Positions 6,830 through 35,531 are shown, counted from the stretch's first letter. The stretch is 64,000 bases of DNA from Zancudomyces culisetae HAW-14-8 (GCA_052426225.1 JBNJNM010000021.1:2914001-2978000), one strand, 5' to 3'. The notes: generated by a model not told the origin, from the sequence alone. Numbers and translations are program-made.

Positions 6830-6842
6830 TGTCATGAACTGA

Positions 6843-12117: not shown

Positions 12118-12540
12118 GAGGGGAGGTCGTGTCATGAACTGATTCTAGAATGTTCGAAAACGTTCTAGAATCATCTGATTTTATTCCGCAGTAATGTTTA
12201 GAATGTTGGGAAACATTCTAGAACATTACCGAAAATTCACATTATTTCTCAATTTTTCTTACGTAATAATTTTCACATGTTTAATTTTATTAGCATTCGA
12301 GTTTGATTTTTGTTTGATTACTAATCCAATTTGATTAGTAATCAAACACGTTTTTCTTTAGCTTGCATATTTAGCTATTCCGCAGTTTTCTAGTGATTTT
12401 GTTCAAAAACCAAGGCTGGAAAAAAGTATAAAAAGGGTACAATTTTCCTGTCTTGGATTCAGTATCTAGTATCTTGTATACATTCATACAATAAACATTA
12501 ATAATAATAAATATAACACTCCAGACTCCAGATCTTGACA

Positions 12541-14478
12541 ACCGTTTTTCTTATGAACAATGACGACTGGTGAACACCATTCTGCGTCGCTTGGTTCGAT
12601 TATTTTCCTGTTCAGCGTTTCTTTAAGTTGTTCTTCAACTTTTTCTTGAAGTCTATAGGGTATCCTATATGGCTTCTGTTTGATAGGCTTTTCATCTGTC
12701 AGCTCAATCTTATGTTCTGTTATAGATGTCTGTTTTAATTCTGAGATGTCATCTACAAAGATGTCATCAAACTCTTCAATCACTTCAGCTAGTTTACTAT
12801 TGTTATCTGCTTCTAAGCCCTTTGGTGCCTCCTTAACCACGTAATACATTTCTGTTTCATCCTCTTGAATTTGTGTAGTAGTGGTTAACCTGGTAATGAG
12901 CTCTGAGTTTTCAATTGGAAATCTTATCTCTGGTACTTTCAGATTAATTATCACTCTGTGTTTGAGAAGCCAGTCGGTTCCTAAGATCAAATTTCCTTCA
13001 TTTTTTTCCATAACAACCAAGTTTGCTGGAAGTATAACCGAAGCTATTTTCACTGGTACATTGTTAATCTTACCCAATGTTGGATGTTTTTTACCATCCG
13101 CAGTTATAATAATTTGAATATTTCTGCTATCAATATCTAAACCCCAACATTCTACCATTTTAGGACCAACAACTGAACAAGCTGCGCCAGTATCAATGAC
13201 TGCTGAAATATCTTGTCCAAAAATTTGTACTTGTGCTCTACAATTGGTAATTTTCCTTTCATGTATTGAAATCTCATTAATTTCTGAAGTATCCTTTTTG
13301 TTGCATAGTCCAACTAACTCTTTTGCTAGTATAGGTGAACTATCTAACAGTTGTATAAGGCTAATCTTTGGATATACCTTATTCAACTCATCCCTTAATG
13401 AAAATGCCTTTGTACCGTTTTGTATCCTTGGGTTATACCTTTTTTGTATTTGTACACTCAGCGGTACATCTTCATCAATTTCCTCAACATTTTTTTCTAC
13501 AGTTTTTTCTTTAATAAAATTTTCTGATAAAGTTGATGTTGCTGCAGTGTTGTTTCTTTTTCTTGCTCTTATTTCAGTAGTGGTATCATTTAATGAATTG
13601 TTTTTTCTTTTTTCAACCGCAAATAGCTGCTTACTGTCTGATTCTTTTTCACCTACAATGTCAATGAAATTTACGTTAGCATTTATTTTAGAATTACTAT
13701 CTTGATTCTTCTGAGCTTTCCATTTTTGGCATTCGAACTTCCTATGTCCTTCCTCCTGGCAATAGAAACACTTGTAAACATTGGTATTCTCGGGTCTATA
13801 ACTTTTCAATTTTTTATCTACTACTTCATCCACTTTAGCTAAAAGACTAACACTTAATTCCTCGAATTTCCTAATCATAGCTGCATACGGCTCTTTGTCT
13901 TTTGACATATCCTTAATGGTTCTACCCTGCCTACTCGCAGCATTTTTAGATAGTTCCTTCATTTTGCTTACTTTATCTTTGTACTCACTCTTCCTATATA
14001 CTCCTTGTTCAGACTTCTCCAACTTAGATATGAACTTTATCACCTTGTCCCAACTCTTGTATCCTGTTTCTTCCAGCTTTTCCTTATGCTCTGCCTTCAG
14101 GATACTAACTAGTAAATCCAGTTTGATATCATCCTTGGTTATTCCTGCTTTTTCACACAACAGTTCTAGATCGTATTCCAATTCCTCTATGCTGTTGTAG
14201 TCGGAGTGTTTGATGTTTCTCAACTTATCCCAGACTTGACACTTGGTCTCCTTGATGCTAAACTTTTCAATAAATAGTTTACTGAATTCATCCCAACTCG
14301 TGAAATTCTCTTTGTTTTTCTTATACCAAATGGCTTCCTTCTTGCCAAGGTAAAGTCTCACAAGATCAATCCAGTCCCCTTTATCCCAATTGTTTTGTTT
14401 AGCAACTAACCTATAGTTATCCGCCCAGTCCTCGGGGTCAATACCCATATCAGATTCAAAAGTCTTCGGTGTGATCAT
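12541..14478 (-). pseudogene. Element E gag-pol, 5' part (Gag, CCHC knuckle, protease, start of RT), interrupted by element T
   Basis: CFYCQEEGHRKFEC knuckle, AVIDTGAA protease, WCSPVVIVHKKNG. The last 15 aa of the ORF-track protein are read-through into the inserted LTR. Confidence 0.92.
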
Positions 14479-14778
14479 TGTATCTAATTGCTGTCTTTTT
14501 AGAAATATATTATCTGCACTTTGTTATGTTATTTTTCTAGGTATATGCCTAGCTGGGAGCGCCACTGTTATATTTTTATTTTAACTTAAACTTTTATTAA
14601 CTTAAAATATACTTGAACTTTATCCTATTCTCTTACTATACCAAATATCCGTTAATATTGTTATTATTAACTATTGAATATTAGTATACTGAATAAAAGA
14701 ACTTATTACTACTATTTATTTGGATTAAAGATGTGTTTTATTTAGTGCTATTTCCCTGCACTTATATACTTTTACTGC

Positions 14779-17700: not shown

Positions 17701-19840
17701 TAAACCGATTTTAAATAAAATAGATAAGTTAGAAATTAAAACCAAACCGAAAAATATCAAACAGGTACAATCTATTTTAGGACTATTTAATTATTTTCGA
17801 AAATTCATAGATAGCTATGCAACCATAATCAAGCCGGTGCAGGACCTTATAAAACAAGGAAGAAGATGAAGATTCAATTGGACGGTAGAATGTACGGCTG
17901 CCGTGGAGAAGGTAAAAATGATACTGTCGTCAGATGCGGTACTAGCCCAACCAGACCAAGATAAGAAATTCTTACTGTCAACGGACGCCTCTTCGATAGC
18001 AGTGGGTGCCGTACTTGAGCAGGAATTTGACGGGACGTTACGACCAGTTGCATATTATTCTAGACGACTAAATGGTGCCGAAAGTAGATATTCAGCATAC
18101 GAGAGAGAACTTTATGCTATTATTTTGAGTATAAAACATTTTCGACATTTCTTGATGCCGAAGCCATTCACAGTTTATACCGACAATTCAGCTGCAAAAT
18201 ACGTTTTGACAAGGCGAGAACCTTCCTCTCGTGTTGCAAGATGGTTAAATTGGTTATCTGAGTACACTTTCGATATACACCATCGAAAAGGGAAAGACAA
18301 CGTTGTAGCTGATTTTTTAAGTAGACCAATGCTAATAGCCACTGAAAACGTTAACGTCGAAAACAGAGATGCATTAAAATCCAGCGTTATAGAAATGTTA
18401 AACTCATTTGAGATAAGTTATACAAGTGAATATATTTTAAACACATTAAAAAATTATATTGTCATACAAGAAACCCTTTATAGAAGGACTAATAAGCGTT
18501 ATAGAGAGGTAGTAAAGAGTAAAGTAGAAGCTCTAAATATTATACAGACGCTACATGACGGGCTAGGACATTTGTCGTTTATGCCCATATGGCATTGGGT
18601 TCAAGCGAAATATTGGTTTCCTGAGATGTTCAAGCTGGTGAAAGCGTACGTTTCGTCGTGCCACAATTGTCAAGTTTATAACATAAGAAAACCAAAATAC
18701 AATTTTCAAGGTAAGATGCCTGTTTCGGGGATCTTCGATGAGTGGGTCCTAGATTATCTTGGGCCTTTCCCAATCTCCTTGAGTGTGAACCGGTATATAC
18801 TTGTGGGTGTTGAGAGACTTAGTCACTTCCCGGTAGCTTTCCCATCACCCGACATAACTGGAATATCGACAGTCCGCCACCTCAAGAATCTCGTTGCGAT
18901 TTTCGGTATACCCGCAGCATGTAGAGTAGACAATGCTACTAGTTTTCAAAACGAAAAGGTTAGGGATATGTGCAGTAAATATAGCGTGAAATTGGAATTT
19001 AACGTACCGTATCAACCCGAATGGATGGGACTCGTTGAACGAATGAATAGTAGGATCAGATATAGCTTGGCGAAGAGCTGCGAAGGAAATTACGATACCT
19101 GGGACGACCATTTACCTGAAATACTACTAGGAATTCGTAGTTCACGGAACAGGACGACGGGAAGAACACCATACGAGTTGCTCTATGGTGTCCCCCCATC
19201 TTTAACAGGAAAAAAGTTATCTACTCCATCCGTCAACTTACGAGAAGTAGAGCTGAGCGGAGTTAGGGTAGAAAGATTGGAAGAGGTTAATACTGCTGTG
19301 CTTTCAAAAAACGAATATAAATATTCTGTCGGTGACCTAGTACTTATATTGTCCGGAAAGATTAGAAAAAATCAACCGCATAATAAACTGTTACCTCGAT
19401 ATACAGGTCCGTGGAAAGTCAAATCCGTCTTACCACATCATTTATATTCTGTAGAAAACGAGGTAGGAAAGGGAGGTGTATATCACGCTTCGCGCATTTC
19501 AAAATATGAAATGAGAACTTAAAACTTTGTTTTAAGTTGCCTTTCGGGAGGGGAGAGTGGATATTATTTCACTAAGCCAATTTTGCCCCTGTTTCATCTA
19601 AATTATTATTATTATTTAGTATTAGTAACATTATGATTAAGTATTGATGGAAGTTTTTGTACGGGGTAACTCGGAGTTTTTATGAAGTCTTTACTTATCT
19701 TTTTTATTTTTCTTTTTTGGATATATTTTAGGAGATATTTTTTTACACACTCACTTTTAGGGAAGAGAACTAAGATAACATTATATTTATTAAATAAAAG
19801 ATATTAAAACTAAAACCCTTAAACAGAGCCACAAACAACT
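14779..19840 (+). mobile_element. Ty3/gypsy element S with AGT...ACT termini, nested in the 5' LTR of element E
   Basis: 285-bp LTRs 14779-15063 and 19556-19840, identical by eye; 5-bp TSD ACTGC (14774-14778, 19841-19845); PPT GGGAGGGGAG; E LTR sequence resumes exactly after the TSD. Confidence 0.94.
15159..19522 (+). pseudogene. Element S gag-pol with an in-frame TGA (15498-15500) and about three frameshifts (near 16790, 17110, 17870)
   Basis: CFNCGRIGHKARFC knuckle, FVDSGA, YLDD, TDAS, HHCC, DDE and YTGPW motifs spread over ORFs 15090, 15507, 16789, 17144 and 17903. Confidence 0.85.
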
Positions 19841-20024
19841 ACTGCTAACTTAAAAAATACTATTAAAACTATACAAAGATACATAAACTTTAGTACTGAA
19901 AGTTAAAGCATAAATTTGTATATACTGTTTAAAACTTGTAATAAAAATCATAATACTAATTAAAAACATATGATTACTAAACTAAACTGTTTCAAGGTAT
20001 GTCTTGGTTTACTATATGACATTG

Positions 20025-20607
20025 TGTCGTGTGTCGGGAAAATTTGCACAATAAGATTTTCCTAGAGAGAATCGCGGGATCGGCGGTTAATCTTCTCACA
20101 ATAGGATCAACCGAACATCCTATTGTGAGCAAAATTAACAATTACTTATTATCCTATCTTTTAGTAGTATTTATTAGTATAAACTTATTTATTAGTACAA
20201 CGGAAATTAGATATAAGCAAAGTAATTTCCTCTGTTTCGAACTTTACCTTCAAATTTCACAATAAATCGTATACATAGCAACAATAGTAAATTTTATACG
20301 ACACGTGCGAGACAACTAATGTTTAGAATTATGTACAATAATAGTAGTTTTTACTCCTTAGTGGTTTTTATACGTTATTGGACAGGTTTAAAGCTTAAAC
20401 AATTTATCTCGTTATAAATATAAACTTTATAGTTTTTGGATTAAGTTTAGACTTTATTATGATAAATATATATCAATAAAGATAAGATATAACAACATAT
20501 AAGTTATAAAGATAATAGTTTAAATATACTTTTAGTAGACTAGCTATAATTAAATAATACACACGTATTAATGCGTAAAAATTAACATTGGAAGCATTCT
20601 TGCGACA
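20025..20607 (+). mobile_element. Solo LTR G (20025-20031 plus 20308-20607), interrupted by LTR F
   Basis: TGTCGTG...TGCGACA termini; GTTG on the right (20608-20611); U-rich stem-loop at 20335-20380. Confidence 0.78.
20032..20303. mobile_element. Solo LTR F (272 bp), inserted 7 bp inside LTR G
   Basis: TGTCG...CGACA termini; 4-bp TSD CGTG (20028-20031, 20304-20307); contains a 13-bp perfect hairpin CTCACAATAGGAT/ATCCTATTGTGAG. Confidence 0.82.
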
Positions 20608-20611
20608 GTTG

Positions 20612-20832
20612 TGTTGTATAATTACAAGTTTAACGTCTACTGAGTAATATATTTACCCAGTATTATACAGGACGGGACTTTTATATTATATATTAGGACT
20701 ATAATTAATTTGGGAGAAAAAGACAATTTATTAATTAATTTAAAACTAGACTATTTAATACTTAAAATAATACTATTTGTATTAACCAATAAAATACAAG
20801 GTAATACAGGTATATATTTCTACTATATAACA
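20612..20832 (-). mobile_element. Solo LTR H (221 bp), related to LTR C
   Basis: TGTTGT...ATAACA; GTTG both sides; shares TTAACGTC, GGACGGG, GACAATTTA and AACCAAT blocks with LTR C. Confidence 0.85.
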
Positions 20833-20837
20833 GTTGT

Positions 20838-21091
20838 TGTTGTGTGTTGCCATGTTTAAGGTCCCATTTAGTGTTTTTTACACCAAATAACACACGGTAC
20901 GGGTCATTTTACTTACCTTTTACTATATGCTGCGAATTATTATATAGTACTTTGGATTTTGCAAAAGAGGACATTTATTTAGTTAAACAAAAATTTCAAT
21001 TTTATACAATAAAATCTACAAAAAATCTAACTAAAAATTACAAAACACAATAAACCAATGTAAATGTTTCGCCTATTGTAGGCATACAACA
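20838..21091 (-). mobile_element. Solo LTR I (about 254 bp), diverged relative of C/H; outermost unit of the left stack
   Basis: TGTTGT...ACAACA; same conserved blocks as C/H; right flank AAAAT does not match the left flank; start could be 20845. Confidence 0.7.
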
Positions 21092-21096: not shown

Positions 21097-21328
21097 TGTC
21101 GTATAGTAAACAATACTGAAGAGTTATCCCAATATTATTGGTTAGTTTAATAGATGTATTTATAGAAATAGTATAAATATGTTTATTGTGAATTATTTAT
21201 AAATTGTCCTTTTCCACTGATAAATAATAGTATAATAAAATTATATATAATTGAAATTGACCAGTCCCGTATAGTACTTGGTATCGAAAGTTACCAAGTA
21301 GGACGTTAAGCAATTTCACTACACGACA
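21097..21328 (+). mobile_element. Solo LTR J (232 bp), C family; outermost unit of the right stack
   Basis: Close reverse-complement match to 2829-3062; TGTCGT...ACGACA. Confidence 0.9.
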
Positions 21329-21331
21329 GAC

Positions 21332-24300
21332 TGTCGTATGAATTATTGGATATTACAATCCGACTATTTCATTTTTTCCCCTTGTGGTTTTTTGGGAATA
21401 TGATAGGTTGTAGTTCTAATCGTTATCAATTTTATTTCTTAATCTATTTTAGTTTTATTTAAAGAAGTTTAATGTAGTAATAGAAAATCTTTTTTTTTTA
21501 CAATTAATAAATCAAAACATAATAGATACTAGTATAACATATTGAAAGTACCTTTATACAATAACAAGTATAAGAATAGAAAAAGTTACAATAAGCAAAA
21601 ACGTTGGAGTAATTATTCCTACCACATTTGGCGCTCCCAACTAGGCTGAAACAAATCTTAATTAAATTAAAGCTATTCTAACCAAACCAGTTTTATTATA
21701 TATTACAACTACATATATATAATATCAACCATAACCTATAATTTTATAATATCAAAAAGTAATAATAATATAAAAATGAACAGTATACAAAACTAAAAAA
21801 TTCAAGGTAAGTTTAAATTAAACAAAAAAATATATATATTTATCTATCATAACAAAACATAACAAAATGAAAAAATCAAGTTATAAAATACTGGAACCTT
21901 CAGAGTTCAACGGATCACTATGGCAGGATCCCGAATATTGGGTAAAAAAGTTTGAGATTTACATGAAAAAGAACGATTTTGAAGAAGCAGAGTACGTGGA
22001 TTGTGTGGAGTCATATTTAGGCGGTAAAGCAAATCAGTGGTACATTATCTATCAAGATAAATTCAAGGATTGGACAAAGTGCAAGGAGTTATTCTTGAAA
22101 CAGTTTAAAAGCAAAGAAAGGGAGTTAGCTTCATGGGAAGAGCTCCAGGGATTCAAACAGGATAGCATGGATATTCTAGAGACTGCATCTAAACTGCAAG
22201 TACTGTTCAAAGCCGCAAGTATAACAGAAGAAAAAGATAAATTACGTTACCTAACCGCTTGCTTAAGACCAACATTTAAAAAGCTTATTTTTGAAAAAGG
22301 TACTGAATCATGGGAAGAAGCAATAAATCATTTAGTTAGACATGAACAACTAGAAAGTATGTGCAACGATACTTCAACGGGTAGCGGAGGAAATCTTTTT
22401 GAAAATGTTACTAAGGAAAGGCTAATACAAGAAGCTAGGTCTATAAAAGATGATCCAGAAGTTATGTATGAAAAGATAGTCAAAAAGTTTGACGAACTCA
22501 GTATCAACATTATCAATAGTATTAAGGCAGGCAACAGCAGACCACCACCAAAAAGTCCTTTCTGTTTCGAGTGTAGGGAGCCGGGACACTGGCCATACCA
22601 ATGTCCTAGGAGGGAAGCTAATCCAAGAACCGGACCAAGTGTAGCATCGGGAAGTAATGCAATGCCTGTGAATACTAACAAGAGGGAAGTAAATTTTTTG
22701 GAAGTTGAAAATGATATCGTAGTCAGTCAAGTTTTTGAGTGTGAAGCAAATGAAGCTGAAATCTATGCAGCAGAAAAGAGGAAGAATGAATTACAATCAG
22801 AAAAAGAAGCTAAAAAAAGAAGAGAAGGCGAGTCAACAATAGAAGTTAAGCCTAATAGGGACATCCTGAAACCTAGAATTCAGCGGAAGAAAGCAGTACC
22901 TATTAAATTTACAACTGACAAAGATGAATATTCAATCAAGAAAAAGCTACAAGGCATACAAGCTAATATAAATTTGGCCCAGCTTCTAGAAGCTTCACCA
23001 CAGGTGCGAAAGGAGCTAATTAGTTACGTTAGAAGGGGTGAGGAGTATGAAATTAAAGAGGTGAACAGCATTGAAAATGTAAGTTCAAACTGCAAGGCTA
23101 TAATAAGTATATTTGGAAGAAACTACTGGGCTATATTGGACACAGGCGCTGCCTGCTCGGTAATGTCAAATGCATTTGCTGAAGTGTTGGGATTAGATAT
23201 TGACAAAGAATCTAACCAAATTATTGTGACAGCAGACGGGAGGAAACACGGGACTAAGGGAATAATTTCAGAGGTACCACTTACAATTGCAGGGCAAAGG
23301 TTTCCAGTGGACATGACAGTTATGGATCAGAAAACTCATGTGTTAATCCTTGGAACAAACTGGTTTAAAAGACACGGAGCAGTTATCAACTTAAACAGCA
23401 ATGAGTTAGTGTTGAACAACGAAGAATATGAAATATCCCTGTCAATTTCAACGCGCAAAGACATAACAATTGAGTCAAAAGACAATGAGTATGAGTTATA
23501 TGGTGTGGGAATAGAGAAGATAGAGAAACCGGAGCTACAGGAAGAGGAGATAGATGAGGAAATACAAAGGATTATAGATGCACACAGCGATCTTATGGCA
23601 ACAGAATTGTCAGAGCTAACACAGACGGATAGGATACTTCATGAAATAGACACTGGAGAAGCAAAACCTGTTAAATCTAAGCCATATCGAGTACCTCACT
23701 ACATGAGAGAAAAACTAACAGAGGAGATAAACAAAATGGAAGAACAAGGTATTATAACTCCTTGTGTTTCTGATTGGTGCGCGCCAGTAGTGGCGGTCTG
23801 GAAAAAGAATGGGAAGATTCGACTATGCTCAGACTACCGTAAGTTGAATGCGGTCACTAAGAAGGATCAGTATGCACTACCAGTAATCGAAGAGATATTT
23901 ACTGCGGTTGCTGGAGCAAAGATATTTAGTACGCTGGACGCATTAAGCGGTTTCTGGCAGGTGAGGATGAAGGACTCAGATAAGCCAAAAACAGCTTTTG
24001 CGATCCCAGGAGGGGGCATGTTTTGTTATAATGTCATGCCCTTCGGTCTTTGTAATAGTCCTGCGACTTTTCAAAGACTGATGGAAAGGGTATTATCATC
24101 AGTACTATGAAAATCAGCTTTAGTATTTATTGATGATATTATAATATACTCAAAGTCCAAATTACAACATACAAAAGATTTAGAGGAGGTGTTCAGATTA
24201 CTTAGAGACAATAATATAAAGCTTCATAGAATTAAGTGTTCATTTGAAAAAACCAGATTAGAATATTTAGGACACATTATCAGTGCAATAAAATTAAGAA

Positions 24301-26587
24301 CTCGCGAGTCAAAGGTAAAAGCAGTTAGGAATTTGGAACATCCAAAGTCTATCAAGGAGCTTCAATCATTTTTAGGCCTAACCGGGTATTATAGGAAGTT
24401 TGTTCAGAACTATGCGCAACAAGCTAAGCCATTACATCAACTGTTAAAAAAAGATACCAGATATAACTGGACGCCTGAGTGTAGCGAAGCAGCCGAATAC
24501 TTATAAAATTCAATAATAAAAGCTCATGTATTGATTTTTCCAAACTCGGAGGAGCGATTCGTGTTGACAACGGACGCTTCAAAAAACGGAATAGGTGCAA
24601 TCCTTTCCCAAAAAATAAATAATCAAGACCATCCCATTGAATTTGCTAGCAGGTCCTTAAGTCCAGCGGAGAAAAATTATTCGTCAACCCACTTGGAAGG
24701 ACTAGGAGTGGTTTGGGGAGTAACTAAATTTAGAAACTATTTATGGGGTAGACAATTCGACATAGTAACCGACCATTCTGCGTTGGTAAGAATTTTTGAC
24801 TCGAAAGACTTAAATGGAAGGTTGGCCAGATGGAGTATTATTTTGTCCGAGTATGACTACATTATCAGACATAGACCAGGGAGAATTAATCCTTCAGACT
24901 ATCTTTCTAGAGATGAAAATGTTGAAAAAACAAATATAGGCATTAGAGAAGGTGAAGTTGAAGTTGAATATTCACAATGGATAACCTATAATATCAAGCT
25001 ATAAAACACTATTTGGAAACAGGTAATTATCCACCAGGAGCGGACGATGACTTTAGGAAAAAGCTCAGAAACAAGGCATTAAAGTACAGACTGCATGAAG
25101 ATAGACTACATAGAAACTCAGCTAAGTTCGGTATGCGGGAAGTATTAACCGAGGTAAATGCTGAAGAAAAAGTAAAAGCGATACACTTGGAGAGACATGA
25201 AGGAATAAATAATACATTTGAGAGAAAAAAAAGATTGTATACAGGACCAAATTTATTGCAAGTTGTAAAAAGGATTGTGGAGAGCTGTGACCTTTGCAAA
25301 CAATACAAAGGAAGTGTTACAAGGAAAACAAATCTTATTCCAATACTGGCAAGAAAACCGTTTGAAATACTGGGACTAGACGCGGTTGGTCCAATAAGCC
25401 CTATTTCTAATAATGGAAACCGATACATATTGTCAGCCGTAGATTACCTAACTAAATGGCCCATCTGTAGAGCAGTAAGTAATATAAACACTGAAACGGT
25501 TATTAACTTTTTGATATATGATGTAGTTCAGTATTAATGTGTACCAACACAACTGATAACAGACCGTGGATTTAATTTTCTGAGCGACATCTCAACCGAC
25601 TTCTATTAATTATTAAATATTCACCACACACCCACTACCGATAACGACTGCAAACTAACGGTCAGGTAGAACGGTTAACCAAAATATAAAAAATCTACTA
25701 TCAAAACTTTGTCAACATGACAAAGCGAACTGGGATAACTATTTTTGGAAGTTGCTGTTAACTTTAAGAACAATGAAAAATCGTAATACAGTCTTTAGTC
25801 CATCAGAATTACTTTATGGTGTCGAGTTGAACACTCCAACATCATGGAAACCAGCTACATAAGTCGAAGACTTTGAGGAGGCCGTAAAAGAAAGAATCGA
25901 ACATATCAGCGTGGATCTTCCGGATATTCGCCTTACAGGATTTGAATCAATGGTAAAAAACAAGAATTACGAAAAAGGAGTCTATGATAAAACCGTGCGA
26001 CTGGCGAGTTTCGGAAATGGGGACAAAGTTTTAAAGCATGTGGAACAAACGAGTTCAAAGTTCGATCCCAAGTGGGAGGGTCCGTACACCATCATACGAG
26101 TACACGGAAATGGTACTTTACAATAGCAGACGCCCAAAGAAATAGAGACGTTGTAAACGGGGACAGACTTAAGAAGTACCATGAGCATAAAAATATGATA
26201 CCAGAAATACAAACAGCGAGACTAAGACCAACACTAAGACAATTTCGACAGCCGTCAGTTGCTTCATGGGGCACTCAGAACTAAGGGGGAGACCTGTCGT
26301 ATGAATTATTGGATATTACAATCTGACTATTCCATTTTTTCCCCTTGTGGTTTTTTGGGAATATGATAGGTTGTAGTTCTAATCGTTATCAATTTGTTTC
26401 TTAATCTATTTTAGTTTTATTTAAATAAGTTTAATTCAGTATTATAAAATTCTTGGTCCTTTACAATAAATAAATCTAAACATAATAATACTAGTGTATT
26501 ATTTTGAAAGTACCCTTATACAATAACAAAATAAGATAGAAAAAGTTACAATTAAGCAAAAAGGTTGGTAGAATAATTCCTACCACA
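21332..26587 (+). mobile_element. Degenerate Ty3/gypsy element K (E/R lineage); LTRs 21332-21626 and 26295-26587
   Basis: Direct-repeat LTRs; PBS TGGCGCTCCCAACTAGGC (21629-21646); PPT AAGGGGGAGACC; AGAC on the left, AGA on the right. Confidence 0.93.
21867..26284 (+). pseudogene. Element K gag-pol with multiple stops and frameshifts
   Basis: CFECREPGHWPYQC, ILDTGAA, FIDD, TDAS and integrase fragments in ORFs 21867, 24189, 24531, 25013, 25911 and 26072. Confidence 0.9.
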
Positions 26588-26590
26588 AGA

Positions 26591-26963
26591 TGTCGTATAA
26601 TAATACATTGAGAACTAAAATTGTTTGAGATTTATCATCTCAATTTTTATCAATCTAGTTATTGATTTTTATAGGTTATCTTTATTTTTAGATAGGACAT
26701 TTTTCGCCTTGTGGTTTTTGTCCAACGATTATTAGTTAGTTAGTTTAAGTTATAGTTTCATAGTTTTATATCAGAAATCGGGGGTAAAAGGAATCCCCCA
26801 CTATATTCTAAATAAAAATAATCTTTCTACAAAATAATATTGTGATAGCTACAATATATACTATTAGTACAACAATATAAATAAATATACAATATAGTAG
26901 TAGTTTTAAATACATTAATAATCACAATAAGAATAAACAATAGGGAAAGCTGTTTATTCGACA
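26591..26963 (+). mobile_element. Solo LTR L (373 bp)
   Basis: TGTCG...CGACA; TSD AAGA (26587-26590, 26964-26967); U-rich stem-loop at 26695-26723 nearly the same as in LTR D. Confidence 0.85.
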
Positions 26964-26968
26964 AAGAC

Positions 26969-27425
26969 TGTTATATAGTGGCTAGAGCTACCTCTAGACA
27001 TTATATAATAATAACTTACCAATTACATATTTATTTCTATATATTAATATTTAGGTTTATCAATTAATATAAGTTAATATTTATTATAGGTTATTTAGTA
27101 TATTATGTGTTGCCTAGTTTTTTTTATCCTTCTGGATTTTTTCTACAGCAACATTCTAGATTATTATTAATAATTAGTATAGTTTTAAGTTTAAAATATA
27201 TTTAGGTTTTAAGTTAAAAAGTTGTTTTAAATTAGTATAAATATGATAGTTATTCAGATAGTTTAAACATCATCAAATAAACACGTAAAATACAAGTTTG
27301 GTCTATTTATTAAAGTCATAGTTACTATAGTGAAAACTTAACAACATTAGTACATAGTATAGTTTTTCTATCAAATAAATATATTTTTTACATAATAGCG
27401 AACTGGAACCTGGAATTCGCTAACA
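26969..27425 (+). mobile_element. Solo LTR M (457 bp), B family
   Basis: Reverse-complement homologue of 2365-2824; AGAC on the left, AAAAA on the right. Confidence 0.88.
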
Positions 27426-27430
27426 AAAAA

Positions 27431-28118
27431 TGTTGTATGCTTAGTTCTATCCAAGCTAAACTATTGGATGAACAGCATACAGCTTCTCAAACACCGAATA
27501 ACCACCGTTATCTCGGGTGTTCGAGCTAGTAATCTGGGATTACTAGGGTGAAATTATCACCCAAAAAGTGAGTCAATATTAAGTTTTGATTATTTTATTT
27601 TAAGTTTCTATTATATAAAGTTCTAATAAAATAGCTAGTCAGGTACTAGTATATTACTAGTAACCCCACCACAAGTTTGGTGGTTTTATCTTTTTATTTT
27701 TAAAAGTTATTCATTAAATAAAATACAAATTAGCTCTAAAATACTTGATTTTACTCTATAAAATTGAAATTTGTGATTTGAGCAAAAACCTACCTAAAAC
27801 CAAAAAAAAACACAGGTAGTGAAGATAACACAATTTTCAAAGGGTATCAGAAAGGTATCAGAGTCTAATTTTTGGACCAAAATTAATTGTTTTGCACACC
27901 AAATTTTAGGAGTTGGGCGTAATTTTACCCAGTTTTATCGCATTTATTGAAGTAATAAATACATAAAACTAAATTAAATAAAAGCTATAAGGTAGGGTTG
28001 ACTGGTTAAAATAAAGTATAACTTTCTCCAGTAACGTTTCCCCTCTATTAGCAGAACTTTTTGTAGGTTTAGTTGCGGAAATTTCCTGAGAAATTTTCTG
28101 CAAACTAAAATTACAACA
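27431..28118. mobile_element. Solo LTR N1 (688 bp)
   Basis: TGTTGTA...TACAACA; near-identical direct copy at 28618-29307; no PBS or PPT adjacent. Confidence 0.82.
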
Positions 28119-28122
28119 CACA

Positions 28123-28614
28123 TGTCGTATTAATATCTTTTATTTATAGACTAAAAATTTATTATTGATAATATTAATATTTTATATTTTATATTTTTAT
28201 TGTTATTGTTATTGTTATATATGTTATTAAGTAAAAATATAATAAAATTGTTGTTTTCCTTCTCTGACGAGAATTTGAACGTCTTTTATACTTTTAGAAA
28301 CGCTAAATAAACTTATAAATACTAAATTAATATTACTATAAATTAATAAAGATAGCCTAATTCATATGAAAACATAAAACATTGTTATAATTGATGTGAG
28401 TTGTAATGACTCACGAAAGTTGAACTAGATCGATTTACATTCACAGTGATGTCATTAGATTTACATTCACAGTGACGTCAACTGATTTACGTTCACTGTG
28501 ATGTAATAAGATGACATCATTGTGAATTTGATTGTCGTAAAATTACTATCGGAATTTACAATCAAAAAAACCCAGTGGGAAAAAGGATTATAAATCTTCA
28601 GTAATTTCATGACA
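28123..28614 (-). mobile_element. Solo LTR O (492 bp), related to A
   Basis: TGTCGT...ATGACA; CACA left, CAC right; on - strand the order is U-rich stem-loop, tandem repeats, TATAAAA. Confidence 0.82.
28432..28506. repeat. Three tandem 26-bp units GATTTACATTCACAGTGATGTCATTA inside LTR O
   Basis: Units start at 28432, 28458 and 28484; unit 2 contains the palindrome TGACGTCA. Confidence 0.85.
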
Positions 28615-28617
28615 CAC

Positions 28618-29307
28618 TGTTGTATGCTTAGTTCTATCCAAGCTAAACTATTGGATAAACAGCATACAGCTTCTCAAACACCGAATAACCACCGTTATCT
28701 CGGGTGTTCGAGCTAGTAATCTGGGATTACTAGGGTGAAATTATCACCCAAAAAGTGAGTCAATATTAAGTTTTGATTATTTTATTTTAAGTTTCTATTA
28801 TATAAAGTTCTAATAAAATAGCTAGTCAGGTACTAGTATATTACTAGTAACCCCACCACAAGTTTGGTGGTTTTATCTTTTTATTTTTAAAAGTTATTCA
28901 TTAAATAAAATACAAATTAGCTCTAAAATACTTGATTTTACTCTATAAAATTGAAATTTGTGATTTGAGCAAAAACCTACCTAAAACCAAAAAAAAAACA
29001 TAGGTAGTGAAGCGTAACACAATTTTCAAAGGGTATCAGAAAGGTATCAGAGTCTAATTTTTGGACCAAAATTAATTGTTTTGCACACCAAATTTTAGGA
29101 GTTGGGCGTAATTTTACTCAGTTTTATCGCATTTATTGAAGTAATAAATACATAAAACTAAATTAAATAAAAGCTATAAGGTAGGGTTGACTGGTTAAAA
29201 TAAAGTATAACTTTCTCCAGTAACGTTTCACCTCTATTAGCAGAACTTTTTGTAGGTTTAGTTGCGGAAATTTCCTGAGAAATTTTGTGCAATCTAAAAT
29301 TAAAACA
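28618..29307. mobile_element. Solo LTR N2 (690 bp)
   Basis: About ten differences from N1 by eye. Confidence 0.82.
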
Positions 29308-29309
29308 GA

Positions 29310-29726
29310 TGTCATATCGAAATTGATGGATTACCCCTTGTCAGGAATTGGATAGGTAATTGGTTATTAATTAGTCATAATGTTATTATTTTATTATTAT
29401 TATTATTAGTATTAAATTATTGGGAAGATTGGACTTTTCTCCCTGAGGAGGGTTTTTTCCTACTTCCTTGATAACAAGTCCACGTTATCATTTTGTTTTT
29501 AAAAAAGAGAATTTTTTTGGTTAATAAGTTATATAGATACAAGTTCCATATATAGTGTTTATAGTATCGAAAAGGAATAAACAAGAATTAAATTTGAACA
29601 AGTGTCTACATTAATCAAGTTATTTTCAGTAACGGTGGACCTAAACACCCTCCGTAAAGAAAATAACTAGTGTATTGACACTGTGCACCCATAACGGGTA
29701 CAATAATATTCCTAATTAATATTACA
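29310..29726 (+). mobile_element. Solo LTR P (417 bp)
   Basis: TGTCAT...ATTACA; TSD CAGA (29306-29309, 29727-29730). Confidence 0.83.
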
Positions 29727-29730
29727 CAGA

Positions 29731-30238
29731 TGTTGTAAATATTTTTATGTTTATATTTATTTTATATTTTTATTTATAAGTTATTTATATTAAAGATAGA
29801 TTTAAAGATTAATAAAGTTGTTAATAAAATTAATGTTGTTGTTAATAAAATTAATGTTGTTGTTATCATGATGTCTTTCACTTTTGTCAAAAATCTAGGG
29901 TTTATATAGTTTTATTTCTCCTTGATTCACATTCTCGTTTGTATCAGGTTTTGGAGTTTTTCTGACAAGTTTCACTAAATATTGTGTTTCTTATCTTCTT
30001 CCCCTTGTTTTATCTTGTTTTAACTACTCCTGATTAACATCTCATATTTTTTCCCCGTTTTCACTAACGAGGTACATTGTAATTTATCATTAAGATAAAT
30101 TACATTGATTTATTTTGAAACATAAAAGTGCGATGATAATAATAGACGGTAATAATACTAATAAAAATAATCAAATGTATGGGGAAAAACCCAGTGGGAA
30201 AAAATGTCCATACCTATACTATAAAAACTAATACGACA
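29731..30238 (-). mobile_element. Solo LTR Q (508 bp)
   Basis: TGTTGTA...TACGACA; TSD CAGA (29727-29730, 30239-30242); TTTTTCCCACTGGGTTTTT motif on - strand as in A and O; internal 21-bp tandem duplication near 29820-29862. Confidence 0.85.
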
Positions 30239-30243
30239 CAGAC

Positions 30244-33200
30244 TGTCATATAGTGGGCAGGAGAGCATGATGACTAATTAATTAGTCATCATGCAAACGA
30301 ACAAATTATTAGTTTGCGATAACTAATGAGGATCAGTTTTTTTCACTATCGATGAAAATAACGTCATCTAGTTTTTTCTGATGACTCATAGAGTCGCAAT
30401 ACAAACGTTTGTTTAGTCATATAATTTTTAATAGTAATTTATTGTTTTAGTATTAAAGAAGTTTAGTTTCAGTATCTTAGTTTAAATTAATTTTTACTTA
30501 GAAAGAAAAAAAGTATAAAAAAGGGAAATATTTGACAAAATAAAGAAAGATATACAGAAAATAATCAGTTAAAAATATAATTACCTTGTTATAGTTAATA
30601 ACAATAACTTAAAGAAATATTATAGAACAATTATAGTAAATACATATATTTTAGAAATAAAATATAACAGTGGCGCTCCCAGCTAGGCCTAAAAACCTAG
30701 TATTGATAACAAGATGATAACTCCAACAGTGTTTGAGGCAGATCAAGGTCATGATCCGGAAGAATGGACAGATAACTTTAGACTCGTAGCTAAACAGAAT
30801 GGCTGGAGCGAGGATGATTGGGTTGACTTGGCAAGGTTATACTTGGGAAAGAAAGAAGTCTTGTGGTACAAGAAGAGTAAAGGTACCTTTACTGACTGGA
30901 AAGCGTTTAGCAAGGCAATGAAGAACAAGTTTACTATCAAGGAATCCAAGACAAGGATCTGGGACAGGCTTAAAGATATCAGACAAGCAGACTTTAGCAG
31001 CATTGAGGAACTAGAGTATGAGGTAGAACAGCTATGCACCAAGGCAGGGATCATAGACAATGACATGAGGATAAACCTACTCATAAGTACACTGAATCCG
31101 GATTGCAAAGAAAGTGTTGAAAGTATTGAGTATACCAGTTGGGATGCAGTGGTTGCACACGTACAGAAGTTTCAACGAACCAGAAAAGATGCAAAAATGA
31201 AAATGGAAGGCGTAGGTGTAAAGATCAAGGAAGCAACTCGTAACGCAGCTAGTAAGCAAGGAAAAACTATAAAGGAAATGGCTAAGGATCAGGCACCATA
31301 CGCAGCGATGATTAAAAAATTTGAAGAGATGAGCGTCAACCTGTTATCCAGGGTCGACGAAGCTATTGACAAGAAGCTGAAAAGCTATAACACCGCAAAT
31401 ACAAGAAGCTATACCTGTTACTTTTGCCAGGAAGAAGGTCACAGAAGATTTGAGTGCCAAAAGTGGAAAGCACAACAAAACAAGGGATCAAAGGAAGAGG
31501 CAGGTACCAACGTGAACTATATAGATTTAGTCAAGATGGATGACGTCAAAGATCAAGAGATATTTGCAGTAGAAAAGAGGGGTTATGCTCAAAATGACAA
31601 AAGCTCAGATCAAAGACCTAGTAAGCGAGCTAATAGAACCGTAACCCAAGAGAGAAATATGACAAGTGCAGAAGCAACTGAGGTAGAGAAAGAGATTGAG
31701 GAAGTTAGAGAGGACATACCGCTTAGAGCACAGTTAACTAAAAGATACTACAATAAGGTAGTAGATGGAAACAAGAAGTTTTCACTCAAGGAAGAACTCG
31801 AAAAGGTGTATCCGAAAATCAACTTAATTCAACTCTTGAATACCTCACCATCATTGTCAAAGGAACTAGTTAAGATTTGCGATAGGGCCGAAGCAGCTGA
31901 AATAAATGAAATCCAACTACAAGAAAAGAAGACTACAAACTGCAGAGCCTTGGTGGAAGTGTTCGGGCAAGAGATCATGGCCGTAATAGACACAGGAGCA
32001 GCATGTTCCGTGGTTTCTATTAATATGATTGATGAATGGGGAGTTGGTGTGGAAAGTTCCTCGAAGCAAATAATAGTAACTGCTGATGGGAAACGACACC
32101 CTACGCTAGGAAAAGTAAATAGAGTTCCAGTTAAGATAGCCTCATTTGTCTTTCCAGCAAACCTAGTAGTTATGTCAAAAAACGAAGGGACGTTGATCCT
32201 AGGTACTGATTGGTTGGTACAACACCGGGCTTCCATAAACCTGCGCGTACCGGAAATAAGGTTCCCCATTGAGAATGCGGAAGTAATTTCAAGACTGGTA
32301 ACATCCAACGAAGTTCAGGAAATAGAATCAGAAATCTATTTAATTTTGAAAGAAGGACCCGAGTGCAAGGAAGATTTCATAGACGAGAATACTAGGAAGG
32401 TACTAGCTGAATATGATGACATTTTTGTCGAGGATATTTCAGATTTGAAGCAGACCGACGTAGCCGAACATAGGATTGAGCTAGAAGTAGACAAACCCAT
32501 TCGTCAGCGGCCATATCGGATTCCCTTTAGGTTACAAGAGAAAGTAGAAGAGCAGTTAAAGGAAATGTTAGAGAAAGGAATCATTGAACCAAGCAACGCC
32601 GAATGGTGCTCGCCTGTCGTAATCGTTCACAAGAAGGATGGTAAGTTGCGAGTTTGCGCAGATTACCGACAGCTCAACAAAGTTACAAAAAAGGATTCGT
32701 ATCCTTTACCCGTTATCCAGGATCTATTTATGGCGTTGTCAGGGGCAGTGATTTTTAGCTCCCTAGACGCGCTAAGTGGATTCTGGCAAATCAAAATGCG
32801 GGAAACAGATAAGGACAAGACGAGTTTTGCCCTTCCAGGGAGTGGTAGCTTTAGATACAACGTTATGCCCTTTGGGCTAACGAATAGTCCAGCAACGTTC
32901 CAAAGGACTATGGAGCAGATATTAAAACCGGTGTTGTGGAAAAAGGCCGTCGTCTTTATAGACGACATCATAGTGTTTTCAAAAGAAGTGGACGAACACG
33001 CAAAGGATCTGGAACTGGTATTTAACTTGTTGAGGAAGAACAAGATCCAGCTACACCGTAACAAATGTGCCATAGGTCAAAAAGAAATAGATTACTTGGG
33101 GCACGTGGTCTCAGATAAAGGTATTGGCACGAGTCCGAAGAAAATATCAGCGATACAGACAGTCAAAGAACCAACAAATATAAAGGAAGTACAATCTCTC

Positions 33201-35531
33201 CTAGGATTGACGGGGTACTATAGAAAGTACATTCCAAACTATGCACGGATAGCAAACCCACTAACCAGGTTACTCAAGAAAGACGAAAAGTGGAGGTGGA
33301 CCGAAGAGCAAGCCGGGGCAGTAACACAGCTAAAGACATTACTAACGACTGCACCAGTACTGGGCCATCCGGATTGGGAACAGGAATTTGTCATCACTAC
33401 GGATGCATCTATGCTAGGGATTGGAGCCGTACTTTCGCAAGGTGAAAAAGGTTCGGAAAGAGTGATCGAGTTTGCAAGTAGGACAACCAATAAGGCAGAG
33501 AAGAATTACAGTATAAGCCATCTAGAAGCGCTGGCTGTAGTATGGGCGGTGAAGAAGTACAAGTATTACGTTTGGGGCAGGAAATTCCGTATTCGTACAG
33601 ATCACAAGTCCCTGATACAGATATTCCATGGGCCTGATATCTCCGGGAGAATCGCCAGATGGGCGATGGTGCTAAGGAACTATGATTTTGAAATAGAACA
33701 CTTACCGGGAAAATTTAATCCTGCTGACGGACTGTCAAGATTGGTTACGGAAAGCACAGAGGACAAACCGGAAGAATTGGACGTGTGTGCAATGGGATAC
33801 CTAGAACATGAGGCGGTAAGACAGTACTTGGCGGACCTATCCTATCCTAGGAATAGTGACGAGAATTTTCGAAAACGCTTGAGGAATAAATCCAGGCAGT
33901 ACAGATTAATAGAAGGAAAGCTATTTAAGAGAGTTAAAAAGATTCTGAAAGAGGTGCTTCACGAGCGAAATTATAAGGAAATAATCAATAAAATTCACGA
34001 AGAGTCTCATGAAGGTATAGAGAATACCTGGAAGCGGGTCAGTGCCAGATATTGCGGAACAGAACTTTACAAAGATGTATACGAGATAGTTCAAAGCTGC
34101 CATACCTGTCAGCTGTATAAAGACGGAAGAACTAAGAAGCATCCTTTGGTACCCATCAAGGTTCAGAAACCATTCGAGATTGTCGGTATTGATGCTATAG
34201 GACCAATAAGTCCGGGGTCGGAATCCGGGAATAGGTTTATTTTGACAGCGATTGATTATTGCACAAAATGGCCTATAGCTGTACCAGTGACAAATATACA
34301 GAGTGATACCGTGGTAGACTTTATTATATCACACATTGTTAAGGAGTTTGGGATTCCGCAAAGAATTATCACTGACAGAGGCGCAGGATTTGTCAGCGAA
34401 GTAACAACAGAGGTTTACGAGTGGCTAGGAACCCGACACGCACCAACAACACCCTACCGTCCCCAGAGTAACGGACAGGTAGAGAGGTTGAATCGCACTT
34501 TGGTTAACATTTTACAGAAGCAATGCCGAAACGACAAAGTCAACTGGGATAGACACATGTGGAAGACCTTACTAGTACTTCGCACCATGAAGAACAAATC
34601 TACGGGATTCAGCCCGGCTGAAATGTTGTATGGGGTACAGCTAGAACTGCCTTCAACTTGGAATTATAATGGGGAAATTGACAATGAGGAAGAGCAAGTG
34701 CAGAACAGGATTAAAAGCATAAAGGGCGAATTGCCAATCCTTCGGCAACTAGGAAACCAGAACTCAGCGAGAGCCAAAAGGTATGATGAAAATATCTATA
34801 ATCGGAAGGTTGTGGAATACAGCTTTAAAGTAGGAGATTTAGTCTTGAAGCTGATTGAGTACGAAAGGGCCAAGTTAGAAAGAGTCTGGGAGGGACCCTA
34901 TACAATTCAGAATAAGCTAGATAAGGGCACGTACATCATCAGTGACAAGTACGGTAATCGGGACCTAGTACACGGAGACATACTCAAACAGTACCACATG
35001 AGTAGCCATATGATTCCGGAGGTGACTACCACATTAAAGTCCAAGCTAAAAAGGTTCCGACAAAGAGCACGCGATGAGGGCATCTTTGCTTAGGGGAGGG
35101 GGTACTGTCATATAGTGGGCAGGAGAGCATGATGACTAATTAATTAGTCATCATGCAAACGAATAAATTATTAGTTTGCGATAACTAATGAGGATCAGTT
35201 TTTTTCACTATCGATGAAAATAACGTCATCTAGTTTTTTCTGATGACTCATAGAGTCGCAATACAAACGTTTGTTTAGTCATATAATTTTTAATAGTAAT
35301 TTATTGTTTTAGTATTAAAGAAGTTTAGTTTCAGTATCTTAGTTTAAATTAATTTTTACTTAGAAAGAAAAAAAGTATAAAAAAGGGAAATATTTGACAA
35401 AATAAAGAAAGATATACAGAAAATAATCAGTTAAAAATATAATTACCTTGTTATAGTTAATAACAATAACTTAAAGAAATATTATAGAACAATTATAGTA
35501 AATACATATATTTTAGAAATAAAATATAACA
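30244..35531 (+). mobile_element. Intact Ty3/gypsy element R ending 9 nt upstream of tRNA-Ala
   Basis: 426-bp LTRs 30244-30669 and 35106-35531 with one difference seen; TSD AGAC (30240-30243, 35532-35535); PBS TGGCGCTCCCAGCTAGGC (30671-30688); PPT AGGGGAGGGGGTAC. Confidence 0.97.
30714..35093 (+). CDS. Element R single-ORF Gag-Pol polyprotein (1459 aa)
   Basis: CYFCQEEGHRRFEC, VIDTGAA, FIDD, TDAS, HHCC, D-D-E, WEGPY; no chromodomain; uninterrupted. Confidence 0.96.
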   Translation: MITPTVFEADQGHDPEEWTDNFRLVAKQNGWSEDDWVDLARLYLGKKEVLWYKKSKGTFTDWKAFSKAMKNKFTIKESKTRIWDRLKDIRQADFSSIEELEYEVEQLCTKAGIIDNDMRINLLISTLNPDCKESVESIEYTSWDAVVAHVQKFQRTRKDAKMKMEGVGVKIKEATRNAASKQGKTIKEMAKDQAPYAAMIKKFEEMSVNLLSRVDEAIDKKLKSYNTANTRSYTCYFCQEEGHRRFECQKWKAQQNKGSKEEAGTNVNYIDLVKMDDVKDQEIFAVEKRGYAQNDKSSDQRPSKRANRTVTQERNMTSAEATEVEKEIEEVREDIPLRAQLTKRYYNKVVDGNKKFSLKEELEKVYPKINLIQLLNTSPSLSKELVKICDRAEAAEINEIQLQEKKTTNCRALVEVFGQEIMAVIDTGAACSVVSINMIDEWGVGVESSSKQIIVTADGKRHPTLGKVNRVPVKIASFVFPANLVVMSKNEGTLILGTDWLVQHRASINLRVPEIRFPIENAEVISRLVTSNEVQEIESEIYLILKEGPECKEDFIDENTRKVLAEYDDIFVEDISDLKQTDVAEHRIELEVDKPIRQRPYRIPFRLQEKVEEQLKEMLEKGIIEPSNAEWCSPVVIVHKKDGKLRVCADYRQLNKVTKKDSYPLPVIQDLFMALSGAVIFSSLDALSGFWQIKMRETDKDKTSFALPGSGSFRYNVMPFGLTNSPATFQRTMEQILKPVLWKKAVVFIDDIIVFSKEVDEHAKDLELVFNLLRKNKIQLHRNKCAIGQKEIDYLGHVVSDKGIGTSPKKISAIQTVKEPTNIKEVQSLLGLTGYYRKYIPNYARIANPLTRLLKKDEKWRWTEEQAGAVTQLKTLLTTAPVLGHPDWEQEFVITTDASMLGIGAVLSQGEKGSERVIEFASRTTNKAEKNYSISHLEALAVVWAVKKYKYYVWGRKFRIRTDHKSLIQIFHGPDISGRIARWAMVLRNYDFEIEHLPGKFNPADGLSRLVTESTEDKPEELDVCAMGYLEHEAVRQYLADLSYPRNSDENFRKRLRNKSRQYRLIEGKLFKRVKKILKEVLHERNYKEIINKIHEESHEGIENTWKRVSARYCGTELYKDVYEIVQSCHTCQLYKDGRTKKHPLVPIKVQKPFEIVGIDAIGPISPGSESGNRFILTAIDYCTKWPIAVPVTNIQSDTVVDFIISHIVKEFGIPQRIITDRGAGFVSEVTTEVYEWLGTRHAPTTPYRPQSNGQVERLNRTLVNILQKQCRNDKVNWDRHMWKTLLVLRTMKNKSTGFSPAEMLYGVQLELPSTWNYNGEIDNEEEQVQNRIKSIKGELPILRQLGNQNSARAKRYDENIYNRKVVEYSFKVGDLVLKLIEYERAKLERVWEGPYTIQNKLDKGTYIISDKYGNRDLVHGDILKQYHMSSHMIPEVTTTLKSKLKRFRQRARDEGIFA

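What the first reader, a model, noticed from the sequence alone, without database searches (positions are those of the whole stretch)
35000..35093. Conserved integrase C-terminal tail found only in the tRNA-targeted elements: candidate Pol III tethering peptide
Seen: after the GPY module, R ends HMIPEVTTTLKSKLKRFRQ, E ends FMIPEVTTTLKSKLKRFRQ (about 4410-4470, -) and the more distant K ends NMIPEIQTARLRPTLRQFRQ (about 26190-26250). E and R are identical over 18 aa here although their LTRs are unrelated. All three sit at stack junctions with 4-bp TSDs. Nested T (chromodomain) and S (ends right after the GPW module) lack the tail and have 5-bp TSDs. Known: Ty1, Ty3 and Ty5 targeting depends on integrase terminal regions. 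Inference: MIPE(V/I)..L+..L+.FRQ may bind TFIIIB, TFIIIC or Pol III.
Basis: partly seen in the sequence, partly recalled or inferred. Interest (0 to 1): 0.72.

Follow-up and report, generated by a model that had tools for sequence, protein, structure and literature searches.

The report
Conserved integrase tail in tRNA-aiming retrotransposons
Three related jumping genes in a pile of about 18 insertions at the starts of two tRNA genes of an insect-gut fungus end their integrase in a short conserved tail also found in relatives from bread-mould fungi; it likely binds a partner protein, possibly the tRNA-gene transcription machinery, but that link is untested.

Summary
Observation confirmed; interpretation plausible but untested. 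The tails of R (35010-35063), E (4413-4466, -) and K (26195-26251) are as described. They follow the integrase SH3/GPY domain of three Ty3/gypsy elements in a 33.5-kb pile-up of about 18 insertions between divergent tRNA-Val and tRNA-Ala genes in a Harpellales fungus. The pile ends 7-8 bp from each tRNA, with 4-bp duplications and one orientation wherever it can be read.

The tail is constrained as protein: E and R differ at 0 of 18 residues but 12 codons, so an RNA signal is unlikely. It is an old clade motif, [ML][IV]P[DE][VI]-x(3-6)-h-xxx-h-xx-[FYW] (h = hydrophobic), matched in 58 of 142 assessable proteins, including Rhizopus elements.

'Only in tRNA-targeted elements' is not shown. R, E and K form one lineage, S and T are distant, and no homologue's insertion site could be read. 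For a tether: AlphaFold leaves the tail low-confidence, and its second block falls in register with Ty3 helix alpha0, which contacts Brf1. Against: DGLT-A targets through RNase H and the integrase N-terminus. Probability of a Pol III tether is about 0.4. No description was found in the searched literature.

The parts
35010..35063 (+). Integrase tail of element R: block 1 MIPEV, 3-residue gap, block 2 LKSKLKRF (integrase residues 371-388 of P0001)
4413..4466 (-). Integrase tail of element E, 18/18 identical to R, 12 codons differ synonymously
26195..26251 (+). Integrase tail of degraded element K (4-residue gap between blocks)
34827..34994 (+). SH3-like C-terminal (GPY) domain of R integrase, ending five residues before the tail
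   Evidence: PFV integrase alignment ends at residue 364; beta strands 314-364 in model; weak PF22938/PF18103
30244..35531 (+). Element R: intact single-ORF Ty3/gypsy element (ORF 30714-35093, 1459 aa, gag-PR-RT-RH-IN, no chromodomain), LTRs 30244-30669 and 35106-35531 (425/426 identical), TSD agac, ends 8 bp before tRNA-Ala
3983..20021 (-). Element E (LTRs 388/389 identical, TSD ttgt), interrupted by nested T and S
21332..26587 (+). Element K, degraded, LTRs about 89% identical; same primer-binding motif family as R and E
6830..12540 (+). Nested chromovirus T (chromodomain integrase, 5-bp TSD accgt); comparison element
14779..19840 (+). Nested element S in E's 5' LTR (5-bp TSD actgc, integrase ends after SH3); comparison element
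1986..21091 (-). Stack upstream of tRNA-Val: about 8 units (catalogued by hand), spacers mostly caac/acaac/caa, nearest LTR end 7 bp from the tRNA
21097..35531 (+). Stack upstream of tRNA-Ala: about 10 units (catalogued by hand), spacers 2-5 bp, nearest LTR end 8 bp from the tRNA
1904..1978 (-). tRNA-Val(AAC)
   Evidence: ARAGORN; Rfam RF00005
35540..35612 (+). tRNA-Ala(TGC), followed directly by tRNA-Lys(CTT) at 35614-35686

Best explanation
The tail is a conserved two-block protein motif just behind the integrase SH3 domain of a chromodomain-free Ty3/gypsy lineage whose three members here sit in stacks at tRNA gene starts, and it likely folds on binding a partner, most likely TFIIIB (Brf1/TBP), which would hold the integration complex at a fixed distance and orientation from the tRNA gene.

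Shown by the sequence or by calls: stacking 7-8 bp from the tRNA with 4-bp duplications, common orientation where readable, protein-level constraint of the tail, and its spread from Harpellales to Rhizopus. Predicted: a long helical core-to-SH3 arm as in Ty3, a tail without confident structure on its own, and an i/i+4/i+7 hydrophobic face in block 2. Inferred by analogy only: that the partner is a Pol III factor. Each new insertion would land between the tRNA and the previous element, shifted by -2 to +1 bp, building the stacks.
For: Targeting of the lineage. Most spacer chains fit 4-bp TSDs with small shifts, on both sides. LTR families A, Y and Z occur in both stacks in the same sense as the adjacent tRNA, with no copy in the remaining about 30 kb of the window. 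K, the oldest (89% LTR identity), lies farthest from tRNA-Ala and R (99.8%) nearest.

Constraint. 0 of 18 amino-acid changes with saturated synonymous change. Among hits ranked without the tail (non-tail score >=100), 19 of 27 assessable carry both blocks, 23 the first and 21 the second. The two-block pattern is in 58 of 142 assessable proteins against 7e-5 in shuffles, including 5 of 6 assessable named Rhizopus proteins.

Binding-motif character. The model has mean pLDDT 89.9 but residues 383-393 are below 50; the shallower model gives helix 379-387 at pLDDT about 40.

Precedent. The profile aligns without gaps from SH3 into Ty3 Gag-Pol 1445-1463. With an offset of 1011, inferred from the published SH3 limits 369-433, block 2 starts at Ty3 integrase residue 448, the start of helix alpha0 (448-456) that contacts Brf1 (10.1101/2021.07.27.453949; one text part and passages). 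The model's 40-residue helix 263-302 matches the extended linker that paper calls a platform for TFIIIB. A 16-residue C-terminal segment of Ty1 integrase binds Pol III (PMC10050235, abstract).
Against: The presence/absence contrast is confounded with descent: S and T are long branches outside the group (quick tree, weak support). No homologue could be shown to sit by a tRNA: 0 tRNA genes in 4 of 4 short loci, which reach at most 520 bp past the match.

The Ty3 register rests on a low-confidence end of a local alignment with only the Pro shared, and the gap between blocks varies from 3 to 6 residues. Ty3 alpha0 packs on a vestigial chromodomain that these elements lack.

DGLT-A, a single-ORF tRNA-targeting gypsy element with a short integrase extension (PMC5006619 passages), binds Tfc4 through RNase H and the integrase N-terminal extension; no binding of its IN-CTD to Tfc4 was found (PMC6101501 abstract and passages). 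In Ty3 the SH3 domain itself contacts TBP, so targeting could lie there. A block-1-like P motif also follows SH3 in T and in more distant hits. Four of 12 named Harpellales homologues and both Calcarisporiella proteins fail the two-block pattern.
Confidence: 0.4

Rival explanations
1. The tail is a structural part of the integration complex: block 1 and/or block 2 pack on another integrase subunit, on RT/RNase H or on LTR/target DNA. Targeting is then carried by the SH3 surface, the N-terminal extension or RNase H.
For: Conserved about as strongly as the SH3 core (0.59 vs 0.56 mean top-residue frequency; flanks 0.31-0.32; 31 rows chosen for having the tail). A P-containing motif follows SH3 in Ty3, T and distant hits. 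Block 2 is basic in Harpellales. DGLT-A precedent for non-tail targeting; the Ty3 chromodomain of a core subunit contacts target DNA.
Against: With a 79-row alignment the monomer model still leaves the tail unpacked. S integrated recently (identical LTRs) with no tail, so it is not generally required.
Confidence: 0.27
2. The tail is mainly a nuclear import signal or a binding site for a general host factor unrelated to Pol III.
For: R and E contain K-R-F-R, matching the monopartite NLS consensus K[KR]x[KR] (consensus recalled). In Ty1 the NLS and targeting segment overlap (title of 10.1101/2019.12.18.879569, search listing only), so the two roles are not exclusive.
Against: Only 12 of 58 pattern-bearing tails keep K[KR]x[KR]; what is kept is the hydrophobic i/i+4/i+7 face, and Rhizopus-type tails end in W with few basic residues.
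Confidence: 0.18
3. The two blocks have different jobs: block 1 is an old structural extension of SH3, while block 2 is a lineage-specific binding helix whose partner differs between host groups (Pol III factor in Harpellales, something else in Mucorales).
For: Block 1 reaches further than block 2 (10 vs 2 of 21 assessable in the lowest score bin). Block 2 changes character between Harpellales (LxxxLxxF) and Rhizopus (AxxxFxxW).
Against: Spacing and hydrophobic register are kept across both groups (gap of 4 in K and in Rhizopus), which fits one shared surface.
Confidence: 0.12
4. Conservation reflects an overlapping RNA/DNA signal near the polypurine tract, or chance between close relatives.
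For: A run of 18 identities anywhere in the E/R alignment is not rare (28% of shuffles); the tail ends about 30 nt before the polypurine tract.
Against: Synonymous sites in the tail are as diverged as upstream (12 of 17 vs 56 of 89) and differ in 6-10 of 11-12 codons in three same-family genomes; the motif recurs across 50%-identity clusters.
Confidence: 0.03

Closest known systems
Ty3 (Saccharomyces cerevisiae; Ty3/gypsy, Metaviridae; PDB 7Q5B)
   Same: Same domain order. Position-specific insertion just upstream of tRNA genes. Long core-to-SH3 helix; model matches 7q5b at TM 0.66. Post-SH3 segment in register with Brf1-contacting helix alpha0.
   Different: Single gag-pol ORF, 4-bp rather than 5-bp TSD, no vestigial chromodomain (32 residues after SH3), about 20% identity, insertion 7-8 bp from the mature tRNA rather than about 15 bp (PMC6101501 legend), one orientation where readable.
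DGLT-A (Dictyostelium discoideum)
   Same: Single-ORF, chromodomain-free gypsy element with a short integrase extension, inserting upstream of tRNA genes (PMC5006619, PMC6101501 passages).
   Different: Inserts 13-18 bp upstream and binds Tfc4 via RNase H and the integrase N-terminal extension. Sequence relationship to R not tested (no DGLT-A sequence came from a tool).
Ty1 integrase targeting domain TD1 (Ty1/copia)
   Same: Short C-terminal integrase segment (16 residues) tethering to Pol III machinery (PMC10050235 abstract).
   Different: Copia superfamily, binds AC40/AC19 and gives a window of about 1 kb (PMC5911963), not a fixed base-pair distance. No sequence similarity tested.
Tj1, Tyl3/Tyl6/Ylt1, Tca8 (yeast tRNA-targeting gypsy elements)
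   Same: Gypsy elements inserting within about 1-30 bp upstream of tRNA genes (PMC5911963 table passage).
   Different: All from ascomycete yeasts; no host factor listed for them in that table; relationship to this lineage not tested.

Membership tests
Ty3/gypsy LTR retrotransposons | LTRs with PBS and PPT; pol order PR-RT-RH-IN | tested here: met
   Pfam order in P0002; LTRs, PBS and polypurine tract
Ty3/gypsy LTR retrotransposons | Integrase with H2C2, rve core and GPY/F-SH3 module | tested here: met
Pol III start-site-targeting retrotransposons (works like Ty3) | Insertion at a fixed short distance upstream of tRNA genes | tested here: met
   7 and 8 bp at two tRNA genes; chained TSDs. One locus pair only.
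Pol III start-site-targeting retrotransposons (works like Ty3) | Genome-wide preference for Pol III genes | not testable with these tools
   No genome held; four short loci without tRNA; genome index unanswered afterwards
Pol III start-site-targeting retrotransposons (works like Ty3) | Integrase contact with TFIIIB, TFIIIC or Pol III | not testable with these tools
Ty3 mechanism in the strict sense | Vestigial chromodomain after SH3 carrying helix alpha0 | tested here: not met
   Only 32 residues follow SH3; no chromodomain hit or fold. Only the alpha0 position is occupied.
Ty3 mechanism in the strict sense | 5-bp target duplication | tested here: not met
   4 bp
Chromoviruses | C-terminal chromodomain | tested here: not met
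   Absent in R and E, present in T
DGLT-A-like elements | Single ORF, no chromodomain, short integrase extension | tested here: met
DGLT-A-like elements | Phylogenetic grouping with DGLT-A; RNase H-Tfc4 contact | not tested
   No DGLT-A sequence among tool results
Classical monopartite NLS | K[KR]x[KR] kept across homologues (consensus recalled) | tested here: not met
   12 of 58

The most novel reading that the evidence does not exclude
An old, undescribed lineage of chromodomain-free gypsy elements spanning Harpellales and Mucorales uses an approximately 18-residue, self-contained integrase tail, the minimal counterpart of Ty3 helix alpha0, to dock on TFIIIB. This gives base-pair-precise, single-orientation integration at tRNA genes and 30-kb pile-ups. 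It would be a portable Pol III tether and would date Pol III targeting by fungal gypsy elements to before the split of these phyla.
Probability: 0.28. Interest if true: 0.72.

Novelty: new variant of a known kind. Interest (0 to 1): 0.5.

Why it matters
tRNA-gene targeting by LTR retrotransposons is described from yeasts and dictyostelids (PMC5911963, passages read). The searches for Harpellales (0 papers; and the one review read by passages) found no case in this group. The stack therefore adds an early-diverging fungal lineage with tight spacing and apparently fixed orientation. If the tail is the tether, it is a much smaller targeting module than Ty3's SH3-chromodomain tandem. It would give a direct test of how often Pol III targeting arose and a short motif for predicting insertion preference from sequence. 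If it is structural, it remains an unannotated conserved integrase motif that no Pfam hit covered in R.

Tried and rejected
Genomic context of homologues, the decisive test, was not obtained. No whole genome is held. The genome index answered once (5 of 20 aligned genomes matched; 4 loci stored, short, no tRNA) and was otherwise unavailable. Scans of metagenome contigs, viral contigs and prokaryote genomes confirmed no relative. No sequencing run was listed. None of these blanks is evidence.

The complex prediction of the tail against the integrase body returned no fold and no verdict. The ESM Atlas gave only generic integrase C-terminal clusters. Scan notes had no look-alike by sequence or place; word searches gave analogues in other genomes or unrelated notes.

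The integrase-core tree is the quick tree only (52 rows; 12 of 49 inner branches at SH-aLRT >=95), so no claim of monophyly or order of events is made from it. The motif patterns were written after seeing the data, and the column conservation used rows selected for the tail. The hit set came from a profile that included the tail, which is why re-ranked by non-tail score. Rows cut off before or within about 20 residues after SH3 were dropped (9 of 36 in the top bin; 44 of 186). Four of the 58 matches are window rows (R twice, E, K).

Rejected: RNA-signal explanation; vestigial chromodomain; pure NLS as main explanation; TSD length as evidence about the tail. Supplements of the cited papers were not read; the Ty3 paper's alignments there could bear on the alpha0 register.

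Full report
Setting. The window is fungal. The nearest named homologues of R's polyprotein are from Zancudomyces culisetae and Smittium (Harpellales), and genome B2, flagged as the same species, holds R's C-terminus at 100%. ARAGORN and Rfam find tRNA-Val (1904-1978, -), tRNA-Ala (35540-35612) and tRNA-Lys (35614-35686). Everything from 1986 to 35531 between the divergent Val and Ala genes is retrotransposon: about 8 units on the Val side and 10 on the Ala side (hand catalogue), plus T and S nested in E.

Observation. The three tails are where and as described. R is intact: one 1459-aa ORF, PR-RT-RH-IN, no chromodomain, LTRs 425/426 identical. E has 388/389 identical LTRs; K about 89%, with a broken pol. 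R, E and K share the primer-binding motif TGGCGCTCCCA; T and S do not. The SH3 domain ends at residue 364-365 of R integrase by alignment to foamy virus integrase and by the model. The tail is residues 371-388, followed by nine poorly conserved residues.

Targeting of the lineage. R's 3' LTR ends 8 bp before tRNA-Ala, and the last LTR on the other side ends 7 bp before tRNA-Val. The 2-5 bp spacers fit 4-bp duplications when each new copy lands between the tRNA and the previous one, shifted by -2 to +1 bp. On the Ala side: K agac, Y aaga, Z agac (left copy only), then U caga, Q caga, R agac. On the Val side: E acaa, then caac three times. The W1-V-W2 block, the central junction and one Val-side junction do not fit and probably reflect recombination (inference). 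Age agrees on the Ala side: K, the most diverged, is farthest from the tRNA and R nearest. R, E, K and LTR families A, Y and Z lie in the same sense relative to their tRNA on both sides, and none of these LTRs recurs in the rest of the window. This part is well supported but rests on one locus pair.

Is the tail special? Between E and R alone, only modestly: a run of 18 occurs somewhere in 28% of shuffles, though locally it is 0 of 18 changes against 48 of 141 (P=0.0017, post hoc). Synonymous sites are saturated (12 of 17 vs 56 of 89 upstream), so the constraint is on protein, not RNA.

The homologues settle the question. A profile search of 1.84 billion representatives gave 37 hits at E<=1e-30 and 406 at 1e-10; 150 were listed. 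Re-ranked by a profile without the tail, both blocks are present in 19 of 27 assessable hits scoring >=100 bits, 7 of 21 at 80-100, 2 of 24 at 60-80 and 2 of 21 below 60. The general form is [ML][IV]P[DE][VI], 3-6 residues, then hydrophobic residues at i, i+4 and an aromatic at i+7. It matches 58 of 142 assessable proteins (four are window rows) against 7e-5 after shuffling. These include 8 of 12 named Harpellales proteins and 5 of 6 assessable named Rhizopus proteins (AxxxFxxW form; names), but neither Calcarisporiella protein, which keep block 1 only. Most pattern-bearing integrases end 23-44 residues after SH3. No Pfam hit covers the tail in R.

The weak point. R-E identity is 69% and R-K 48-55% in most pol pieces, against about 29% for T and for S RH-IN; S and T are long branches in a weakly supported quick tree. 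'Tail in targeted, absent in untargeted' is therefore one phylogenetic contrast, and T even has LIPD shortly after its SH3. I could not read the insertion site of any homologue: four loci of 1.0-1.4 kb hold no tRNA but barely reach the LTR end. Two weak hints of stacking in same-family genomes remain. B4:C1 has two equal-scoring copies 5,017 bp apart on one strand. In L003 the LTR end is followed after 2 bp by a TGT-starting hairpin resembling another LTR (by eye).

Mechanism. With 79 sequences AlphaFold models the integrase confidently (mean pLDDT 89.9, closest solved structures PFV and Ty3 intasomes) but leaves residues 383-393 below 50. A 9-sequence model gave a low-confidence helix at 379-387. 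A conserved but unstructured segment with one hydrophobic face suggests folding on a partner (inference).

[quoted passage not shown] A profile of SH3 plus tail aligns to Ty3 Gag-Pol 1345-1463 (E=2.8e-4). With an offset of 1011, inferred from both published SH3 limits, the tail's Pro pairs with a Ty3 Pro and block 2 begins at residue 448. The residues themselves are not similar and the alignment end has low confidence, so this is positional analogy. The base-pair precision points to TFIIIB/TFIIIC rather than a Ty1-type Pol III contact, which gives a window of about 1 kb (PMC5911963, first part and passages).

Against this, DGLT-A reaches Tfc4 through RNase H and the integrase N-terminal extension (PMC6101501), and a classical NLS pattern is kept in only 12 of 58 tails. 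My odds: Pol III tether 0.40, structural or DNA-binding role 0.27, import or other host factor 0.18, split roles 0.12, RNA signal or chance 0.03.

Novelty. Pol III-targeted gypsy elements and short integrase tethers are known kinds. A Harpellales case, this motif and a 33-kb double stack were not found in print: searches returned 0 papers; some searches were seen as listings; PMC3248453 and PMC10386755 were read by passages and said nothing on it. The library lacks most subscription papers, and repeat databases were not searchable. Other scan notes describe similar stacks at tRNA genes in other fungi (unchecked). Verdict: new variant of a known kind, interest 0.5.

Noticed in passing
window 1986-35531: The whole 33.5-kb interval between divergent tRNA-Val and tRNA-Ala genes is a back-to-back double stack of about 18 LTR insertions from many LTR families, in the sense of the adjacent tRNA wherever orientation can be read. 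This is better supported than the tail hypothesis itself.
   Followed up: yes
window 2829-3977 (-): Chimeric or non-coding unit: 5' LTR of family Y, a different primer-binding motif (TGGTGATCCAGCC), 600 bp without a long ORF, a polypurine tract and a 3' LTR of family A, flanked by caac on both sides. Either a small non-autonomous element or a deletion between two neighbours.
   Followed up: partly
window 27431-29307: Two 98.5% identical 690-bp LTRs (W1, W2) flank a different LTR (V). Their spacers (aaaaa, caca, cac) break the TSD chain, suggesting a block brought in by recombination from another tRNA locus.
   Followed up: partly
window 14779-19840: Element S has AGT...ACT LTR termini instead of TG...CA, identical LTRs, and in-frame stops between its gag, RT and RH-IN frames.
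   Followed up: no
window 35540-35686: tRNA-Ala and tRNA-Lys genes are directly adjacent (about 1-2 bp apart), probably a dicistronic Pol III unit; insertions lie only upstream of the first.
   Followed up: no
P0045, P0161-P0179: Rhizopus-type homologues are mostly called as separate proteins of about 440-455 aa with integrase domains only, unlike the single polyprotein of R. Whether integrase is a separate ORF or they are a different element type was not checked.
   Followed up: no
B4:C1 1336-1671 and 6353-6688; L003 1328-1376: Tandem same-strand copies 5,017 bp apart, and an LTR end followed by a possible second LTR start, hint at stacking in same-family genomes.
   Followed up: partly
window 38340-42796: An ABC-transporter-like gene (by eye from translation) lies in three overlapping open frames, either introns or frameshifts.
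   Followed up: no
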